A stretch of DNA of 64,000 nt, taken from the NCBI RefSeq assembly GCF_018977255.1, contig NW_024704743.1, positions 27,468,001-27,532,000 on the forward strand, given 5' to 3'. The translations under genes were made by a program, and so were the position numbers. The notes under the pieces were generated by a model that was given only the letters and a program-made list of their open reading frames with translations, was not told the DNA's origin and did not search any database. Origin of the DNA: Callorhinchus milii (Eukaryota). Below, piece after piece: positions 18,246 to 42,244 of the stretch (its first letter is position 1; every line of letters starts with the position of its first letter).

Positions 18246-18624
18246 ACCAGTATGGAGTAAAGCTGAACGCAGTACGGAGTAAAGCTGAATGCAGTACTCC
18301 CGATAGGGTCTGAGCAAGGTTTTAATACAGTTAAAGCATCATTTCCTCTCCTTTATATGCTAACCACTTGAGATAAAGGCCATCATCCCATTAGCCTTTT
18401 TGATAACTTTCTCACCTGTGAGCTTGTTTTCAGTGATTTGTTTATGTGGACACCCAAATCCCTTTGCTCTTCCACAGTTCTTAGTTTCTCACCATTTGGA
18501 AAATATTCTGTTTTGCTATTTTTTGATCTATAGCAGATGACCTCACACTTCCACACATTGAATTTTATCTGTCGCAGTCTTCCTCTTAATCATTTTTAAT
18601 CACTTAATCTGGCTAAATCCCTTT

Positions 18625-20087
18625 GATATCACCAATGATATCCTGACCATCTGTAACCAGGGCTCCCTCTGCCTCCTCGTCCTCCTCGACCTATCGGCAG
18701 CATTCGATACGGTCGACCACGCTATCCTACTCCACCGCTTGTCCTCCCACCTCAACCTTCAAGGCACTGTCCTTGAGTGGTTTAGGTCATACCTTTCTCA
18801 CCGTCTTCACTTTGTCTCCACAAATGGCTTCTCCTCCACCCCCCGTACTGTCTCATGTGGTGTCCCTCAGGGCTCTGTCCTCGGTCCCCTCCTCTTCACC
18901 CTCTACATGCTCCCCCTTGGTGACATCATCCGCAGACATGGAGTTAACTTCCACATGTATGCGGATGACACCCAACTCTACCTTTCCTCCTCTACTCTCA
19001 ACTCCACGACCACCGATGTCCTGACAGCCTGCCTGTCCGACATCGAGTCCTGGATGAGAGACAACTTTCTTCAGCTCAACGTGCGAAAAACAGAGGCCCT
19101 CCTGATTGGCTCGCGTCAGCGCCTCCGCACCTCAGGCGCCGACACCATCAGCATCCAAGGCTGCACTCTCCACCTCTCAAAGCCAGTCAGGAACCTCGGC
19201 GTTTTGTTCGACCCTGAGCTGTCCCTTCTCCCTCACATCCGCACCACAACTGGCACCGCCTTCCATCACCTCCGGAACATTGCCAGACTACGGCACTACC
19301 TCACCCCTCACGCTGCTGAAACCCTGGTTCACGCCTTTGTCACCTCAAGGCTGGACTATGGGAACTCTCTCCTCGCCGGCCTTCCCGCCACCTCCCTCCA
19401 CAAGCTGCAGGTCATTCAGAACTCTGCAGCTCGTGTACTGTCCCGCACCAGGCTTCGCGACCACATCACTCCCACCCTCGCTCGCCTCCACTGGCTCCCC
19501 ATCCCCCAGAGGATTGATTTCAAGATCCTCATCCTCACCTATAAGGCCATCCACGGCCTTGCTCCCTCCTACCTCTCCAACCTACTATCCCCCTACCTAC
19601 CTGCCCATACCCTCCGTTCCTCCGGCTCCGGTCTGCTCCACGTCCCCCGCCCCAACCGCCCTACCATCGGTGGTCGGGCCTTCAGCCTCTCAGCCCCCAG
19701 GCTCTGGAACTCCATCCCCCAGTGCCTTCGCCGCCTCCTCCTTCAAGGCCGGTCTCAAAACCTTTCTCTTTGACCGAGCCTTCAGCTCCCCTCTCGACTC
19801 TCTTCCCCCTCCTCGCTCCCTCCCTTCCCTCCCCTCACTCTGATCATTTCCCCCCTCCTCGCTCCCTCCCTTCCCTCCCCTCACCCTGACCATTTCCCCC
19901 CTCCTCGATCCCTCCCTTCCCTCCCCTCACCCTGACCATTTCCCCCCTCCTCGCTCCCTCCCTTCCCTCCCCTCACCCTGACCATTTCCCCCCTGCTCGG
20001 GTCCTGACCCAACTGTGCAGCGCCTTGGGACGTCCTCCTGACATGAAAGGCGCTTTATAAATGGAATCTTGTTGTTGTTGTTGTTGT
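18625..20087 (+). mobile_element. Young 5'-truncated L2 LINE (RT C-terminal region, 3'UTR, (TTG)n tail)
   Basis: Open frame from 18625 with [52 protein letters not shown] and FKILIL motifs; frameshift near 19730 then [10 protein letters not shown]; tail gggacgtcctcctgacatgaaaggcgctttataaatggaatc(ttg)n. Many CpGs retained. Confidence 0.95.
19805..19993 (+). repeat. 46-bp C-rich tandem repeat (4 units) in the L2 3'UTR
   Basis: Unit ccccctcctcgctccctcccttccctcccctcaccctgaccatttc; the tga(c/t)cattt marker recurs at 19841, 19887, 19933 and 19979. Confidence 0.95.
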
Positions 20088-20708
20088 AACTGCCTGCTCC
20101 TACCTACATGATATTGTGTCTCCCAACTTTGTGTCATCTGCAAATTTTGATGCTTGAATTTAGGGCTCCAAAAATAATAAAGGTACCTTTCCCAAGTAAA
20201 GCATCCTTCATCCTGATAATTTCAAGTGCTTCTTCAAGCACTTCGGGATGCTACGTCGGGTGAAAGGCGCTATATAAATGCAACTTGTTGCTGTTGTTGT
20301 TCATAAACAACTGTGGAATTTGTGCTAATTCATAACAGTGTCAATATGGTAATTATCAATGATTGTCACAAAATTGTGTTATGAAATTTCACCTCCATAG
20401 TTACAAACCAAGAGAAAAAAGCTACAAATTCCCGCCTACATACCATTGACTCATGATAGTTGTGTATGTCACAGTTGGTTCATATTTGGGAGAAATAAAT
20501 ACATTTCAGATACACGACTAAGTATAAGTCAAACAATGTGGGAGGGATTAACACATAAATCAACAGTGCATGTTTGGAGCATATAAAATGTAGAAACGTC
20601 AACTTGATATAATTCAGTCTTATCTACCACTAATTTAGATGTTACTATAATTTTGTTGTGCCAAATGTACTATATAACAGGGTTACATTTAATGTGGAAA
20701 CAGGGGCT

Positions 20709-33720: not shown

Positions 33721-36694
33721 CTATGTAATTTTATCTTATGAGAATCCAGCATTACCCCAAGCATACCCTGGAGTTTCCATGCCTTGGTTCTTTCTCCAGA
33801 TTACGTCAGCAGGGTGCGTCCCTCTGGGGAGAGTGTGCATTCCTTTGAACACATGGAACTTTCCAAGTGTAGGTGGAGTTACAAGGAATTCTCAGTTTGG
33901 TTTGAATACTCTTAAGCATGCCTGTTAAATTAAATGTTAAAGAACCCTTGATATTGTTTGAAAAGAAAAGGGAGTTTCTCCCATTGTCCAAGCCAAGAAT
34001 CCCCTTCATCAAGTTTGATCACTTACCTCATGGCTGTTTGTGGGACATTATTGTGTACAAATTGGCTATTGCATTTTGCCTACAAATTACCCAGTCACTA
34101 CACTACAATAAATGTTATGAAGCTCTTTCAGACTACCCACTGGGGTAAAGGTGCTAAACTAAATGCAAGCCTCATTATTATTATGAATGGCAATTGCAAG
34201 AACTGAAAACCAATATGAAACAAACGAGTTTAACATTTCATTCAGTATCATCTCTCTCAGGAATACTCAAACATCCAGATATTTCACATTAATATAGAGG
34301 ATTGCTTCAAGCAAAAATCCGTTGTCATATTTATGGCTTTATTTTTCCAATTTAATCAAGATTATCATAAGCAGGAAGAGTGCTTTAATATTACATCTCA
34401 AATCAAAATATTTTCTTTCCTTATTTTCCTTTTGGCAAATATGCAGATGAGTCTTGGTTGCAGTTTTCACATGCAAGCTACAAAAAATGAAAAAGGAAGG
34501 AAGATAAGAGAGGTCTTGCGATGTTGCACCACAGTCAATGAAACTCGATGAGTTGCAGATAGGAAGCATAGTCATGGGGGGGGTAAGCTAATCCACTGTG
34601 GCCCCTGGTCACCTAACTTTGCTGATCAGTTAAAGTTGCCTCACAGTTTTTCTGCAAATAGCTTACATGGCTGCAGCAAGCAAAATTGCTGGTATTCGAT
34701 ATAAACATTGCCTCTAACCATAATCCAGAAAATCAGCTAAAGCATTCCCAACCTCTGAGCAAATTTTGTCACAGGCCCGAGTTGAAATGGCTGGCTCTTG
34801 TGAGCTATCCACTTTGTGGCCTGGAGCAAACACTCTTTCGGAGCTGTGACAGGAAAGAAGCCTGACAGTGTGGCCTTGCAACTTGAACTGACAGCCATCT
34901 GTTGGTTAGGCAGACGTTGTTACTGCCTCTGTGCCTCAGAGCCCCCGGCAACAATATTTTAATCAAATAGATGATTAAATAAAAAATAAATGAATAAAAT
35001 AAACAATATTCTAATCAAATAGATACAATTTGGCCTTTTATAATGTTTCATGTAACATCATCCGCTCATGTTTTGTCAATGAATAAAAGTTCATTTCATT
35101 ATTTTTTATTTCATTAAATGTCTGAATTTAGATAGCTCAAATGTCTTAATTGCATTGAGTACGTTGAAAAATATTTAAAGTTAGAGATCTTAAGCTTTGA
35201 GTTTGAAAACAACAATAAAATAGCACTTATAACGATTTTAAAGACCAATAAGAGAAATGCATTCTGTACCACACACAGGCTTACATCAAAATGGGAAATA
35301 ATTGTTGGTGCTTTATTTATAATCCATCATTGTGTCAATTAATTAAAACCTGATAAAGATTTAAGAGTTCTTTGTGCATGTACCCAGTTCACTCCATCAT
35401 AAGGTACAGTGAATGATACAAGGGCCTGGCTTATGATGTTGTAATGTGTAATAAGTCAGTTCTCTTTCTAGATTTCGATGTACTGAAAAATGTTACGGTA
35501 GCCAAAACAATTAATTGCTCTGTCTTCTGTGCCGATAGAAAGGAGAAGGGATTTGATTTAATCTTGTTTCCGTGCCACTGAAAATGAAGGAAGTGCAAAG
35601 GGCATAACAGATTTAGCAAGAAGCAGCGCTGAAGGGTGAAGGAATCCTCTATCAGCCTTGGACCTTATTAATGGCCTAGATTGCCTCTTCCACCAGCAAT
35701 AATGAACAGATACAGCTCTATAAGAGGCCATGACCTGCGAATGGAATACAAGGGCAGGGCTATAAGATGTGTTAAGGACTGATTTTATTGAAATACAAGA
35801 CAATCTGTTTGAACCCGAGTATTATTTTGAGTTATTGGAATTCATCTTCCCTTTTTCAAATACATTTACAAAAACGTTCTTTTGGAAGGTCAGCAAATGC
35901 AGGGTAAATAACAATAATACTTGGATTTCATATAGTGCCTTATCACATATTCGAAACATCTCAAAGTGCTTCACAGAATATACTAGAAAGTGTTGTGACT
36001 ATATTTTGTGGGCATCATGCAAAAAGAGTCCTATCTATACAGAGAAAGGATGTGTAAATATAAATGGACAGAGGGAGCAAAGGGACAAGACAGAGGCAGA
36101 AAGAAAGACAGACAGACAGATAAGCTTGTGTTCTCAATGCATGCATGAGGCAATCAATACCAATGATTAACCTCTCTCAGCTGAGAAGAGCAGAGAAGAG
36201 ATTACATCAGGCTGATGCAAAAAAACACTTACAGTTTCAGATCCCTTCTGACTATCACATTAGGCCTAAAGCTGCTTCAGTTATATCCACTAATGTTGCT
36301 CCAATTTAATTTGTTACATTTTGTAATATACAGATGGTGCACAGTGCTCATTTTTAAAAAGAAATTTACACTCAAATTAGATTCTGCAGAGCTCTATTCC
36401 GATTGTGAGTGCAACCCGCTCGAAACTCGTCAAATCTGTAGCCGGGAACATATTTTGTTCCAGAGCCCGGTTCTTTACCATTAATAGCGAGCTGATTTTG
36501 TGGCCTGTCCTATAAAAAGTTTGCTGTGGTGAAAGATCAGTGCTGAATGAGGTTCGCTGAGCACCTCACACCACGGTCCAGAAGATAATTTCGTAAATTT
36601 CTTTGGTCAGCCGGGTGTCTGCCACATGTGGAATCCCAACACAGAGTAACCAAATCAGACTGCGAGGGATACAATGCATACTCTCTCCCTGGTT

Positions 36695-36912
36695 ATCTAA
36701 TTCTGGAGAATATCAAGTGCAGGTTAGAAAGAGCCAAGGCTTGGGGACTCCAGAAAATGCATTGGGGGTAGTGCTGAAATTTAACCAACTAAAACCGAAT
36801 AACTCACCATTGAGAGAACTGTCGGCCAAGCTTCCTACTGCTGGTTTAGCTGGGTTTACCAATTAGGGCCTAGGCTTGTAAGGTTAGCAGGAACTGAGTG
36901 GGAAGAATCCCT
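36695..36912 (+). repeat. Unclassified old interspersed repeat (second copy ~60628-61003)
   Basis: gagaat..tgcag..aagagc.aaggc..tgct..a.ttta.cca.ctaaaa and terminal ctgagtgggaagaatc shared between both copies. Confidence 0.7.
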
Positions 36913-37503
36913 GCTCCTAACCACAAATGTTTTGGCTCAGCCTCAGCTCATGTGGGAATGTGGCGGATTCGCATTAATGTTTACTGTATTGCCTTTTCAC
37001 GTATTGTATTCACAACCTCAGTATTTGTTGTTGTTACACGTATATGCTTATACTGCAGGGAATAGCATTAGAAGATTGAGTAATAAAGGGTGTATGGAGA
37101 GGCGATGGATCAGTCTGTATTCATCGTGATTTTGATTTCAGAAAATGAATATGAATTGTAAAAGGCCAGGAAATTGCATCTTAAGTGAGGTATTCATCTC
37201 AAGATTATAGAGGTAATAAACATGGCAAAATGAAAGAATAGTTGAATAGATGAATAAAGGAAAACTAAGCAGAGAGTCAGCAAAATGGACAACGTTGCAG
37301 AACCAAAGGTAGAGATTGGGCTGGAGAGTCTACTCTTTTTTCTAGTTTAGTTTTAATCACAAATCTAGCAGCTCCTTATAAAAATCATTCCTCCACTCGA
37401 TGCTGCGTATGAATGAAAAGTCATGAGCATTTTCAGGAACTAAAACCTTTGTCTTGTCTAGCTTACCAACTTCCACTCAAATTTAAAGATGGTTCTATAT
37501 CTT

Positions 37504-37968
37504 ATAATAATAATAATCCTTGTATTTGATATAGCGCTTTTCATGTCTTCTAGCGTCCCAAAGCGCTTCACAGAATATACTGTAAAGTGAATTGACTGTA
37601 TATTTGTGGACGAACGCGGCAGCCAATTGCGCACAGCAATGTCCCACAAACAGTCATGGATTGAAAATGACCAATTTATTATTGTTTTGTTTTTTTGGAG
37701 GGATTATTATTAGGCGTGTGGAGTAAGGAAACTTGCGAATGGGATCAGTAACTCAGTAATATTCTGTGAAGCGCTTTGGGACGTCTAGAAAACGTGAAAA
37801 GTGCTATATCAAATGCAAGGATTATTATTAATAATCCTTGCATTTGATATAGCGCCTTATTGCATCTTCGAGAGCATACTATAAAGTGAATTGACTGTAT
37901 TTTTGTGGGTGAAACCTGGCAGTCAATTGCGCACAAACAGCCGTGGATTGAGTGACCAAATTATTTTT
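37504..37968. mobile_element. Rearranged cluster of three SINE pieces (minus, plus, minus)
   Basis: Minus copy 37504-37736, plus 3' end 37755-37829 and minus copy 37829-37968 joined tail to tail. Confidence 0.88.
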
Positions 37969-37973
37969 TTTAT

Positions 37974-38082
37974 TCATGTGGCTATCAATTTCTGCTAGTC
38001 CCTGTTATTTTTCCTCCCGCTCCCTACAGCACCTACACCCACTGTTATCTTCCCTTCTGCTTGACCTAGATGCAGCTCCACC
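37974..38082 (+). repeat. Direct repeat copy A flanking the S1-like unit
   Basis: tcatgtggctatcaatttctgctagtccctgttat...acacccactgtta...cttgacctagatgcagctccacc aligns by eye (roughly 85% identity) to 39197-39309. Confidence 0.9.
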
Positions 38083-38551
38083 CCTCATCCCTGCCTCAAA
38101 CACATCAATCCGAACACCAGTGACGCTGCCAGATCTTCTTTTGGTCAGTCGGGTGGCTGACACATGAGAGGTCTCAGTGTCTTATCGAAGATGTATCTTT
38201 GTGGAACGCAGGCTTGAGGCAGAGTTACTGATCCCATTCGCAATGCAATTGTAACTTGAAATCCCTGGGTTTCAGCCTTTCAACAACCGGATCATAATTC
38301 TGGCTACATTGCACGTATACTGCTGATAAACCTTTCAGTCACGTGAGACAACTCTGGCCAGTGCAGAATATCCAATCCGGTCACCCTTACCAAGTGCATT
38401 ATCTAAATCGTCCAGGTTATCCTCTGCCTAGTGTAAGCATCTACCTGGCTGCCCAGGCTTTCTATCTTGTACTAACTACGGATTTTGTTTTTTTTAAGAA
38501 AAACTTGACAAAACATAATATGTCTTTTGCCCCAAGTCTCAAGTACTTGTT

Positions 38552-38557
38552 TTTATT
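38552..38557 (-). terminator. Polyadenylation signal of the S1-like gene
   Basis: AATAAA on the minus strand about 45 bp downstream of the TGA stop; no genomic poly(A) tail follows. Confidence 0.6.
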
Positions 38558-38602
38558 CAATTTCAACAGATACTCTAAAATTCTTACGTAGCACTGCGGC
38601 AT

Positions 38603-38873
38603 TCAGACAGGCACCCTCGGGCCATTTGATGCTGTTTCAAGGATTTGTTAAGACGTCTGATGGTTTTTGCTTTCAAATTGATATCCACGTCTTCCCAAGC
38701 CCTAGAGCAGCATTTAAGGTGCACAATCTTCATTAACCTTCTCTTGTAGGTTGAATGTCGGGGTCGACGGCTAATCCTCCTTCGTCGCCTTCCCTGGTAT
38801 TTGGTTTTCCTCATCCTTCTTCCACATCGTTTGCAGGGTGGCTGTGTCTTGGACGATATCTTGATTTGGTCAT
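38603..38873 (-). pseudogene. Spermatid-specific basic nuclear protein S1-like (chondrichthyan transition/intermediate sperm protein) pseudogene
   Basis: ATG at 38873 gives MTKSRYRPRHSHP; after a 1-nt loss at ~38837 the frame reads CKRCGRRMRKTKYQGRRRRRISRRPRHSTYKRRLMKIVHLKCCSRAWEDVDINLKAKTIRRLNKSLKQHQM; after a second 1-nt loss at ~38622 it reads PRVPV-TGA (38605-38603). Collinear end to end with dogfish S1 as recalled (TKSRYR...GRRMRKT...RRISRRPRHTTYRRR..KIVHLKRRSR...NLKVK..RRLNESLKQH...RVPV). No intron. Confidence 0.85.
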
Positions 38874-38957
38874 GATTGTTTTGACTTTGACAACCAGTTG
38901 AGTTCTTATCACATGCATTCAAGATTTCTTAATGAACCTTTGCCCCTGTTGAGGTAC

Positions 38958-39003
38958 CTTTTTATTGAATGGGACCCCGATTGTTGATGACCTAGCGTAT
39001 TGG
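38958..39003 (-). promoter_or_regulatory. Putative core promoter remnants of the S1-like gene
   Basis: Minus strand CCAAT (39003-38999) followed about 30 bp later by TATA-like CAATAAAAAG (38967-38958), 85-95 bp upstream of the ATG. Confidence 0.45.
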
Positions 39004-39196
39004 TATTGTTGATTAAATGTCTTAGCATAAGCAGGTAAGGCATTGACACCCTATTTGATATTGATTATGGTGTAAATTGACACTGCCTTATAAGGTATTA
39101 CTATGTCCCTCATCCCTCACCTTGTGTTCCCTTTGGACACTCAAATTGACTGTAATTATCCTGATATGGCTTTCAATCCATATATGGTCAAATTAA

Positions 39197-39309
39197 TCAT
39201 GTGGCTTATCAATTTTTGCTAGTCCCTGTTATGTTGTTTCCTCCTGCTCGCTACATCACCCACACCCACTGTTAGCTTCTTTTCCACTTGACTTAGATGC
39301 ATCTCTACC
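39197..39309 (+). repeat. Direct repeat copy B flanking the S1-like unit
   Basis: tcatgtggcttatcaatttttgctagtccctgttat...acacccactgttag...cttgacttagatgcatctctacc; same orientation as copy A, about 1.22 kb away. Confidence 0.9.
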
Positions 39310-42244
39310 AGAGGAGGTGGGATCGAGTCCTTAATGTATGCAGGTGACAACCATCTTGTCTAACTCTACAATCTATGGGAGGTTTATTGTACAGCACTTA
39401 ATCTCTATAGGTCTCTAATAAACCCAATTATGTAATGATGAAGGGAAACTGGTTATAATCACTTTTTTTAATTGGTTCATAATCACATTGAATTATGACT
39501 ATTATAATTAGAGTTACATTATAACTATCAAGTGGAAAGTATGCTCCACCAGGAAATATGCCACTAGTATAATGACTGAAAGGTTAGAGGAAACAAACAT
39601 TAATGCAACCACAGTAAATAATATTTGGGAAGTAACCACTACTGATTGTTGCTAACAGGAAGGATGAATGAACTACTACATTACATTGTTATATAAATCT
39701 TAGGTTCTAAGTTATGCTAACATTCTACAACAAATATTAAGTGTGAAATCTGTGGGGTTTATACTTGCTTAAACTATAACTATCACTGGCGATAATTATC
39801 ACAAGGTAATAATTTGTGACTGTTGTACAATAACATTAATATTCCATCAAATTGAACTAATAATAATAATACCTGATTTGATATAACACTTTTCAAATTG
39901 TGAGGATGACTTAAAGCAGTTCAAAGGATGTACAGTAATGTAATGACTATTTTGTTGGTGATACGGCAGCAAATTTGTGCACAGCAACATTATTGAGGAC
40001 CCGGGAGACTCATCTCCAACCTCTGAAAAATGGTTTCTCTCACCTCTTTGATCTCAGTTCACTCAGCTCCACCTTGTTTAAAAAGGCAATTTTGTTTTGC
40101 TAACTTACAGCAGGCAGAGAGAAAACCTTGACTGGATTAACCGCAGATCCTCAAGTTGAAAGGTTGTTGGTATGGTCAAGGTCTCCACAAACTGATTAAT
40201 TTCCTAACTGATCCACTTCCTTCTATAAATAGGGCTACCTGCTTCTTTTGGAAACAATGGCATTTCCACTCATTGCTGGCAATAGAATTCACCTGTGGTG
40301 ATTTTTTCATTGCTCACGTGCTTATGTACTTGACTGTGACGGTTTCTGCTGCTTGATGGTGGTACAGTATGTCTTCATCTGTTACCAGCAGTAAATGGAG
40401 TTGCCGTAGATTAGCATACAAAGAAGTGCTACATTTTACAGTTGTTACTTGTGAAATGTTTTGATATGTTTTGACATGATGAAGCACTATATCAAATGCA
40501 AAGATTATTATTATATATTATATATATTATATATATTGTTTGAACACAGCTATGAGTCTTGCGCGGGAGAGGGAAATCATCATAAATAATAATAAATGAT
40601 AGCAATAATACAGTAATAATAAGCTTTTTGTTTGATATAGCGCTTTCCACATCAGGAGGTCATCTCAAAGCACTTCGCAAGATTTACTCTGAAGTGTAGT
40701 AACTGTGTATTTCACATGCGAACATGACAGCCAATTTGAGCACAGCAATGTCCACAAACAGCCATGAAGTGATTTTTTTCCCCAAGCAAATTAGTTTTGA
40801 ACGATGTAATATATATATTTTTTTGCCAACTTGCAAAGCAAATTGATGGATGATTTCTGCAGTACAACTGTCACTGCTAAATCTATTTAAAACACATGAA
40901 ACATTGCAAGGAAGCTGAATAAAAATGAATAGTATGTAGATTTGATTGCTGATATTTATGAAACATTGCCTGTGTCAGCCCTGAGAGAGAGAGATGATGT
41001 GAAGAGAAACTCAGTCCTAATTATAATCATCATTGAGCTGAGTGCTCACTTCCCATTATGTCTGTCTTCAGCTGCACAGAGCTATTGGCTCCAAAAGGAA
41101 ATTCACAGACACTATTTACTGAAGGCCAGCGAGCTTATAAATCAGCTTGTATCTTCCTTTATAGGTCTCTTTAGATTCCTCCTCTGCTGACACATCCTTC
41201 AGCCATCAAAAAAAAATTCGCATTTTTATACCCCCTTAAACCCATAAAAACATGCCAACATAACTACTGTCAAGTGTGGTGACTGCGTTTGCAGGAAAAC
41301 AAAGCAGACACTTAATAAGAATGCTAATAATAATAATTTATAATAATCCATGCATTTGGTATATCAACTTTCAAGCCGGAGGACGTCTCTACTTGCTCTC
41401 AGGATATGTTATTAAGACCACAATCTCTTGACCCATTGTGCTAGCAACTGAACCAACTGAACAAAATATAATTTGTGGCTCACTGGGCAGACATTCTAAC
41501 TCTCCAAAGTCCCTCTCAATGGTTGCATCCAGAAGATATCTGCACTGCATATTGGATTGCAATTTAGTGGGACACTGGTTTAACTTTGATTTTTTGTTGT
41601 TGAGTTAAATCAGTAGCCATCAAATCCCATCATTTGTCAGTTAGTATCTATGTTAACTTGGATCATGCAAAGAAAAGAATCAAATTGCCATGTGAGTATT
41701 TGGTTCCCACCATCTCTGTGTTTCATCTGAACCAGGGGGTTCACAGTGAAAGCTTGGAGCATGTCAAGTACTCTGAGACACTGTCTTGCATGAAGAGTGC
41801 TACAAAAGTACAAGTTGCTGTTGTTTTTTTCAAAACACGCAGTCACGTTTTGTATCTCTGCACCATCTTTTGCAGCAGTGCAAGTGTCTGCCTGCAGCCG
41901 AAATGTTACATGGGTGAAGAGAAGATGGGAAAATTGCTGAGGTACAAATTAAGAATAATTTGCTGTGCCACATACCAGTGTAGCTTTAAAAATGCAATTT
42001 GGGGGACCAGTCAAGCACAGTGACAAGTGGAATTCTGTTGTAAACAATCTCATTTTAATTATGAGGGTACCATCTATCATGCCTGAAATGTGTGTGTTTT
42101 TTTAAGTCTGGATTTTCTACGTTGTTTAGCATATTGTTGTTGTTTGACTTTCCAGTGTTTGCACCACTTTAACCCTTTGACAACTGCAGTTATATTTTTA
42201 GTGTAATGTTCAGTGTAATAATTATTACATCAAACACATTTTGA

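What the first reader, a model, noticed from the sequence alone, without database searches (positions are those of the whole stretch)
38603..38873. Hidden homologue of shark spermatid-specific protein S1 (frameshifted pseudogene)
Seen: the Arg-rich ORF 38584-38922 in the track starts at a TTG and hides a real ATG at 38873. Restoring two single-base losses (~38837, ~38622) gives a 90-aa protein from MTKSRYR to RVPV-stop. Established (from memory): dogfish S1/S2 are basic intermediate proteins that replace histones before protamines in spermatids, with these same termini and the core RRISRRPRH.TY.RR..KIVHLK. Inference: this lineage carries an S1 gene family that short, low-complexity, intronless structure would make easy to miss in annotation, and intact paralogues probably exist elsewhere. 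If the genome is holocephalan, this would date S1 to before the shark/chimaera split.
Basis: partly seen in the sequence, partly recalled or inferred. Interest (0 to 1): 0.85.

Follow-up and report, generated by a model that had tools for sequence, protein, structure and literature searches.

The report
Scattered chimaera spermatid-protein S1 gene family
This stretch is a dead copy of a shark sperm-packaging gene, one of thirteen scattered through a chimaera genome, and the copies look as if they were moved together with their promoter by hitch-hiking on the tail of a neighbouring jumping element.

Summary
Confirmed. Window 38873-38603 (-) is a pseudogene of dogfish spermatid protein S1: 57 of 86 residues identical with X at two breaks, score 255 against a shuffle maximum of 80. 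Both frameshifts are bridged without gaps in DNA contigs of two other samples.

It is one of 13 CDS-bearing copies in G000: 5 intact, 3 shifted only near the C-terminus, 5 broken. Most open copies already stand in UniRef as 'Uncharacterized protein' of Callorhinchus milii. So S1 predates the shark/chimaera split.

New here is how the copies spread. They keep promoter and poly(A) signal, start at variable 5' points, and 8 of 18 loci end at the tail of one inherited sense-strand SINE fragment, with no shared flank beyond (0 of 28 pairs). That SINE shares its tail with a LINE. Best reading (about 0.55): LINE-driven retroposition of a long read-through RNA. DNA-level duplication remains open, because only one short 3'-only copy was found. 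Testis expression is not shown. The scan had not noted this family before.

The parts
38603..38873 (-). S1 pseudogene CDS, intronless, 90-codon frame broken by two one-base losses (about 38839-38840 and 38618-38622)
   Evidence: breaks real in two other samples
39086..39095 (-). CCTTATAAGG, a CArG-type box (label recalled); shared by the S1 copies and by the S2-like genes
38957..38967 (-). TATA-like CAATAAAAAGG about 90 nt before the ATG, conserved in the copies (promoter role inferred)
38552..38557 (-). AATAAA polyadenylation signal
39193..39309 (-). 5' end of this copy; part of internal direct repeat R1
37970..38166 (-). internal direct repeat R2 (38086-37970 is 84% identical to R1); remnant of a tandem duplication in the source locus, not an LTR
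37822..37965 (-). 5'-truncated SINE in sense orientation ending in (TAT)n: the shared 3' end of the cassette
37822..39309 (-). whole cassette copy in this window (about 1.5 kb)
18562..20090 (+). unlinked LINE fragment (RVT_1, E 2.5e-25) whose last ~65 nt align with the SINE tail: candidate partner LINE family

Best explanation
The window holds a decayed copy of the gene for S1, a basic spermatid protein. In dogfish it binds DNA between histone loss and protamine deposition (recalled; the name comes from Swiss-Prot). Shown: it belongs to a family of 13 CDS-bearing copies on 6 scaffolds, plus gene-less pieces on 4 more, each with promoter, CDS and poly(A) signal; this copy is broken. Shown: the cassette ends at one inherited, 5'-truncated, sense SINE and has variable 5' ends. 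Inferred: after the chimaera lineage split, a source locus was transcribed from upstream of the S1 promoter, through its poly(A) site, to the SINE tail. The partner LINE's reverse transcriptase, which needs that tail, copied the RNA into new sites with 5' truncation. Copies that kept the promoter could work at once and add dosage. Local duplication and R1/R2 recombination added further copies on C2 and C4. Some copies kept frame and arginine content; this one lost both.
For: Identity. Family: 13 CDS copies plus one remnant among 14 matches; 5 intact, 3 C-terminal shifts, 5 broken. Shared 3' end: 8 of 18 loci run through the same R2/SINE junction region to the SINE tail (window, C2:96.0, C4:73.83, C12, C1, C22, C8, C21); C21 reaches it through a deletion. 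0 of 28 pairs share repeat-masked flank in up to 3 kb beyond the tail, while 20 of 21 pairs share the 600 nt before the junction. Same insertion: a G in the SINE in 6 of 6 alignable cassette copies against 0 of 56 control SINEs; genome-wide 12 G against 2874 T exact matches. 5' ends range from about -164 to -1950 from the TATA-like box. The SINE tail aligns with a LINE 3' end, and such LINEs presumably need the tail (PMC3747384, passages). The tree is star-like (2 of 10 inner branches starred). Cassette SINEs are 85% alike and free SINEs 83% alike, so both date to a similar period. Selection: frameshifting indels 6 in 273 CDS columns against 41 in 322 flank columns (p 1e-6); Arg 26-30 in 8 open copies against 16-26 in 5 broken ones (p 0.002).
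Against: Neutral 5' truncation should leave many short 3'-only copies. Only one (C8) was found against 13 gene-bearing ones, and none is cut inside the CDS or the 3' flank. 10 of 18 loci do not reach the tail: six gene-bearing copies end earlier, C4:72.747 stops just inside the SINE, C4:67.51 ends in a T-type SINE, and two are upstream fragments only. No target-site duplications, though 27 free SINEs show no clear ones either. The last ~85 nt of the SINE carry no diagnostic letter, so recombination there is not excluded. The window's own SINE has lost the diagnostic position. No source locus or upstream start site was identified. Amino-acid selection is weak: best omega about 0.6 for the 5 intact copies, but about 1.0 when GC-rich C19 is swapped for C20 and C2:117.70. 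Expression of an intact copy is not shown.
Confidence: 0.55

Rival explanations
1. DNA-level duplicative transposition. A break near a recipient SINE was repaired by copying from the donor SINE into the S1 gene, or subtelomeric and segmental exchange moved the block, and deletions later trimmed it.
For: Promoter and up to 1.9 kb of upstream DNA are retained. Few short copies. The T-type SINE at C4:67.51 could be a recombinant. C4:72.74 and C4:73.83 share several kb of upstream flank, and C2:117.70 and C2:118.17 are sisters (100/100), so DNA duplication did happen locally. 15 sites lie nearer scaffold ends than uniform (mean 0.27, p 0.002).
Against: No pair shares flank past the tail (0 of 28). 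The G variant is kept in 6 of 6 alignable copies, where crossovers spread over the SINE should often give T. The 5' junctions inspected by eye are mostly not SINE 5' halves. SINEs are also denser near the start of C1 (58 hits in the first 12 Mb, 42 in the next 18 Mb).
Confidence: 0.33
2. Orphons of a former tandem array. Recombination between R1 and R2 released circles that re-inserted elsewhere.
For: R1/R2 direct repeats. A second, partial S1 copy lies directly upstream of C2:117.70, there is a tandem pair on C4, C22 has upstream block, repeat and SINE but no gene, and many 5' ends fall in R1.
Against: An R1-R2 circle holds neither the SINE nor the block upstream of R1, yet most loci have one or both. 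It could explain at most C20, C15, C19 and the C2:117.70/118.17 pair.
Confidence: 0.08
3. A non-autonomous LTR element that captured the S1 gene, with R1 and R2 as LTRs, echoing the old retroviral idea for fish protamine genes.
For: A 117-bp direct repeat bounds the window's copy, and the repeat can be read as TG...CA.
Against: Homology runs up to 1.3 kb past the 5' end of R1 and through the SINE past R2 in copies on different scaffolds. No primer-binding site or target duplication was seen, and there is no population of solo repeats (13 matches, all but C8 at gene-bearing loci).
Confidence: 0.03
4. The window's copy is an intact gene with assembly errors, or the match is a low-complexity artefact.
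For: Single-base losses in short runs; an Arg-rich protein.
Against: Gap-free contigs from two other samples; shuffle tests; reduced Arg (21) and CpG (9) as in other broken copies.
Confidence: 0.01

Closest known systems
Spermatid-specific protein S1 of Scyliorhinus canicula (Swiss-Prot P13275, SSS1_SCYCA)
   Same: Collinear end to end. The 13 chimaera copies are 61-77% identical to it, with the same termini and basic core.
   Different: Known as one protein. Here it is a 13-copy dispersed gene family with promoter, and this copy is broken. Chimaera copies carry one extra residue in each of two places.
UniRef 'Uncharacterized protein' entries of Callorhinchus milii (A0A4W3I4A2, A0A4W3KFX7, A0A4W3H8T8, A0A4W3IS42, A0A4W3HC88, A0A4W3IZV8, A0A4W3K235, A0A4W3K3G7)
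   Same: Six are letter for letter the translations of paralogues found here; A0A4W3K235 differs from the C4:73.83 downstream frame by one residue.
   Different: Unnamed, with no family link. A0A4W3K3G7 fuses two tandem copies. The window's copy has no entry in these results.
Retrotransposon-mediated transduction of flanking genes: SVA 5' transduction and SVA-borne AMAC gene copies in primates (recalled); Alu-aided processed pseudogenes (PMC5199112, search listing only)
   Same: A non-autonomous element's 3' end carries host sequence, promoter included, to new sites, with variable 5' ends.
   Different: Those use the relaxed, poly(A)-reading L1. Here the carrier would be a truncated SINE whose tail matches a tail-requiring LINE, in a cartilaginous fish, carrying a whole germ-line gene about a dozen times.
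Multi-copy intronless protamine and histone genes and their orphons (recalled); 'retroviral horizontal transmission' hypothesis for fish protamines (title seen in the reference list of PMC11607694)
   Same: Intronless sperm basic protein genes, many copies, Arg content conserved more than sequence.
   Different: No LTRs and no horizontal transfer; dispersal is within one genome.

Membership tests
S1 spermatid protein family | Collinear sequence match to P13275 beyond Arg/Lys composition | tested here: met
S1 spermatid protein family | Closer to shark S1 than to the other basic-protein clade in this genome | tested here: met
   61-77% to P13275 against 36-47% to S2-like P0012; the split has 100/100 support, midpoint root only
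S1 spermatid protein family | Open frame of about 87-94 codons | tested here: not met
   Window copy has two real frameshifts; met by 5 of 13 copies
S1 spermatid protein family | Spermatid-specific expression and transient DNA binding before protamines | not testable with these tools
   Tissues of the runs are not given; one low-depth contig in a run guessed to be RNA matches a broken paralogue
Dogfish S2 (for the C2:19.1 and C2:107.46 Mb genes) | Match to the S2 sequence | tested here: inconclusive
   No S2 record retrieved; the label 'S2-like' is recalled; 34-43% identity to S1
LINE-driven retrocopy (tail-mediated transduction) | Common 3' end at a LINE-related tail with unrelated flank beyond | tested here: met
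   8 of 18 loci; 0 of 28 pairs share flank; tail alignment
LINE-driven retrocopy (tail-mediated transduction) | Variable 5' ends with an excess of short copies | tested here: inconclusive
   Ends vary from -164 to -1950, but only one short copy
LINE-driven retrocopy (tail-mediated transduction) | Target-site duplication | tested here: inconclusive
   None in 7 copies; no clear ones in 27 free SINEs either
LINE-driven retrocopy (tail-mediated transduction) | Intron loss | not testable with these tools
   All copies are intronless; no intron-bearing source seen
LTR element | Homology between copies ends at the outer edges of two terminal repeats | tested here: not met

The most novel reading that the evidence does not exclude
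A truncated SINE beside the S1 gene turned the whole locus into cargo for a tail-requiring LINE. A burst of promoter-complete retrocopies followed, and selection kept those able to express S1 in spermatids. This would be a route to functional gene duplicates in genomes where such LINEs do not copy ordinary mRNAs, and a real, non-LTR case of retro-mobilised fish sperm chromatin genes. With the S2-like and protamine-like genes on C2, it would also expose the histone-to-protamine gene set of a holocephalan.
Probability: 0.45. Interest if true: 0.72.

Novelty: new variant of a known kind. Interest (0 to 1): 0.52.

Why it matters
S1 was known from one shark protein. Finding it in a chimaera dates this intermediate-protein step of sperm chromatin packing to before the holocephalan/elasmobranch split, about 420 Myr ago (PMC3964593, passage). 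It also gives gene and promoter sequences and names a set of uncharacterised database entries. If the SINE-tail route holds, it shows how whole genes with promoters can be multiplied by LINEs that normally read only their own tails. That is directly testable by empty-site comparison in other chimaeras. The pseudogene in this window is ordinary; the family and its mode of spread carry the interest.

Tried and rejected
LTR reading of the 117-bp repeat: rejected, because homology passes both repeats. Assembly error: rejected. Composition artefact: rejected.

No RNA holder was listed for the window's stretch. X16 (guessed RNA) gave only SINE pieces and one 55-nt upstream piece. The 12 G-variant SINEs elsewhere are not cassette copies: none matched unique cassette sequence beyond an A-rich junction match in two, and about half have their own SINE head. 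Reading the R2 deletion as a spliced intron was dropped, because extra bases sit at the joint and C21 keeps the segment.

Pfam found no family at cut-off for S1 or S2-like proteins. Rfam over 36000-42000 gave 5 sub-threshold matches, three on the inverted SINE pair. P0014 (1802 aa) is probably a low-complexity hit and was not followed. Dogfish S2 could not be retrieved. No structure or complex was predicted, as a short basic protein is unlikely to be informative.

Nine paper searches listed nothing on chimaera S1/S2 genes or this cassette; I saw listings only, and subscription journals are mostly not held. Term searches in PMC13052469, PMC3466250 and PMC3964593 found no protamine or spermatid-protein mention in the main text. 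Their supplements were not opened and may list these genes.

Full report
Observation. The minus strand carries the Arg-rich frame 38922-38584. The true start is the ATG at 38873. The coding sequence lies in three pieces of 11, 72 and 4 codons plus stop, separated by one-base losses at about 38839-38840 and 38618-38622. The 71-residue core found 3 proteins among 5.8 billion: two Callorhinchus milii 'Uncharacterized' entries and Swiss-Prot SSS1_SCYCA, E 1.1e-11. Read through with X, the copy matches S1 at 57 of 86 positions, 31 of 47 outside Arg/Lys. The score is 255.5 against shuffle maxima of 80, or 125.5 with Arg/Lys fixed. Contigs from two other samples bridge both breaks with no gaps, so the copy is a real pseudogene.

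Family. DNA and protein searches of G000 gave 13 CDS-bearing copies on C2, C4, C12, C15, C19, C20 and C21, plus a remnant, mostly 69-80% identical over the 750-nt query. Five are intact (C4:67.51, C4:72.747, C12, C15, C19). Three are shifted only near the C-terminus (C20, C2:117.70, C2:118.17). Five are broken (window, C2:96.0, C4:73.83, C4:72.74, C21). Gene-less pieces lie on C1, C7, C8, C22 and at C2:107.46. A profile search returned 8 S1-type and 3 S2-like C. milii entries, all unnamed, and dogfish S1. The dogfish cluster has a second member from an unnamed contig. Chimaera copies are 61-77% identical to dogfish S1, and the two non-chimaera proteins form a pair inside the S1 group. Non-coding flanks of the copies still align at about 70-85%, so I infer that the expansion is holocephalan, while S1 itself predates the split (about 420 Myr, PMC3964593 passage). 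A second clade of three intact genes and one broken gene on C2 resembles dogfish S2 by recall only.

Selection. Indels are depleted in the CDS: 12 events in 273 columns against 54 in 322 flank columns, frameshifting 6 against 41 (p 1e-6; the flanks include homopolymers and alignment edges). Open copies keep more Arg (26-30 against 16-26, p 0.002) and more CpG. dN/dS is weak: 0.34 by counting among intact copies and 0.73 among broken ones. The codon model gives about 0.6 for the five intact copies (2dlnL 5.9 against omega 1), about 1.0 with C19 swapped out, and about 1.2 for broken copies. This fits selection on frame and charge more than on exact sequence. The only expression hint is one 300-nt contig of depth 9.9 in X15, a run guessed to be RNA. 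It matches the broken copy C4:73.83 at 35 of 36 listed sites, and by my reading the odd site makes a further stop. It says little.

Anatomy. All copies keep a CArG-type box (label recalled), a TATA-like element and most keep the AATAAA. A direct repeat R1/R2 first suggested LTRs. Homology, however, runs on upstream to about -1075 (C4:67.51, C1), -1126 (C12) and -1950 (C22 with C4:72.747), and downstream into a SINE. Other 5' ends lie between -164 and about -580. At the 3' side, 8 of 18 loci end at the (TAT)n tail of a truncated sense SINE. It is one inherited insertion: G at a site in 6 of 6 alignable copies, 0 of 56 controls, and 12 against 2874 genome-wide. The window's own SINE lacks that position, C21 has a deletion beside it, and C4:67.51 ends in a T-type SINE. 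Beyond the tail 0 of 28 pairs share masked flank, while 20 of 21 pairs share the 600 nt before the junction. The tail aligns with the 3' end of an RT-coding LINE in the window (the L2 label is recalled). PMC3747384 (passages) states that SINEs recruit their LINE through such tails and that these LINEs presumably need stringent tail recognition.

Mechanism. One fixed 3' end at a LINE-type tail, variable 5' ends, a star-like tree and a similar age to the SINE family point to retroposition of a long read-through RNA that carried the promoter (inferred, 0.55). Against it: only one short 3'-only copy and none cut inside the gene, 10 of 18 loci not reaching the tail, no target duplications (uninformative) and no identified source. 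Selection for promoter-complete copies could explain the first point, and later deletion the second. SINE-anchored DNA repair or segmental duplication (0.33) explains promoter retention more simply. It certainly acted locally on C2 and C4, but it does not predict that no copy extends past the tail. Circles from R1/R2 recombination (0.08) cannot carry the SINE. An LTR element (0.03) fails its test.

Comparison and novelty. The protein is a member of a known, tiny family, and the window's copy is an ordinary pseudogene. The cassette works like SVA-mediated transduction in primates (recalled), but with a truncated SINE and a tail-requiring LINE, and with a whole germ-line gene copied about a dozen times. 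Nine searches of the held library listed no paper on it. The original dogfish papers were not among them, and supplements of the elephant shark papers were not opened. Earlier scan notes do not cover it. Verdict: observation confirmed, interpretation supported and extended; new variant of a known kind; interest 0.52.

Noticed in passing
L135 and L136 (G000:C2:115201342-115201500 - and C2:115722273-115722431 +): Two 98%-identical 53-aa Lys/Arg-rich ORFs; the first has a TATA box and its exact sequence is not in the protein collection. By recall they resemble a dogfish protamine (Z2-type): probably unannotated protamine genes.
   Followed up: partly
L087, L088, L089, L090 (G000:C2:107.46, 19.110, 19.108, 120.636 Mb): Three intact 77-80-aa S2-like genes, two of them an inverted pair, and one broken copy, with TATAAAAG and the same CCTTATAAGG box as S1.
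   Followed up: partly
L068:4838-4945: A ~105-nt piece of the S1 promoter lies about 950 nt behind the S2-like gene at C2:107.46 Mb: a remnant of old S2-S1 linkage, or an insertion.
   Followed up: no
L093:5843-5995 (+): 51-aa basic ORF starting MTKS about 700 nt behind the broken S2-like gene; not in the protein collection.
   Followed up: partly
P0008 (A0A4W3K3G7); L059/L060: The public model joins the N-terminus of the intact copy C4:72.747 to the C-terminus of the broken copy C4:72.74 about 5 kb away: probably a false intron.
   Followed up: partly
L066 (G000:C19:0.777 Mb): The C19 copy is intact but strongly GC-shifted at synonymous sites (dS about 0.75-0.85, 23 CpG), as expected from GC-biased conversion near a small chromosome's end.
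   Followed up: partly
all family sites: 15 sites lie nearer scaffold ends than uniform (mean 0.27 of the half-length, p 0.002); SINEs show a similar lean on C1.
   Followed up: partly
window 37505-37850: Two SINEs tail to tail form a long inverted repeat, which gives spurious plant miRNA hits in Rfam. Reverse SINEs also follow the ends of other copies.
   Followed up: no
L059 near the C4:72.74 copy (L011): A nearly perfect 40-nt tandem array inside repeat R1 of this copy.
   Followed up: no
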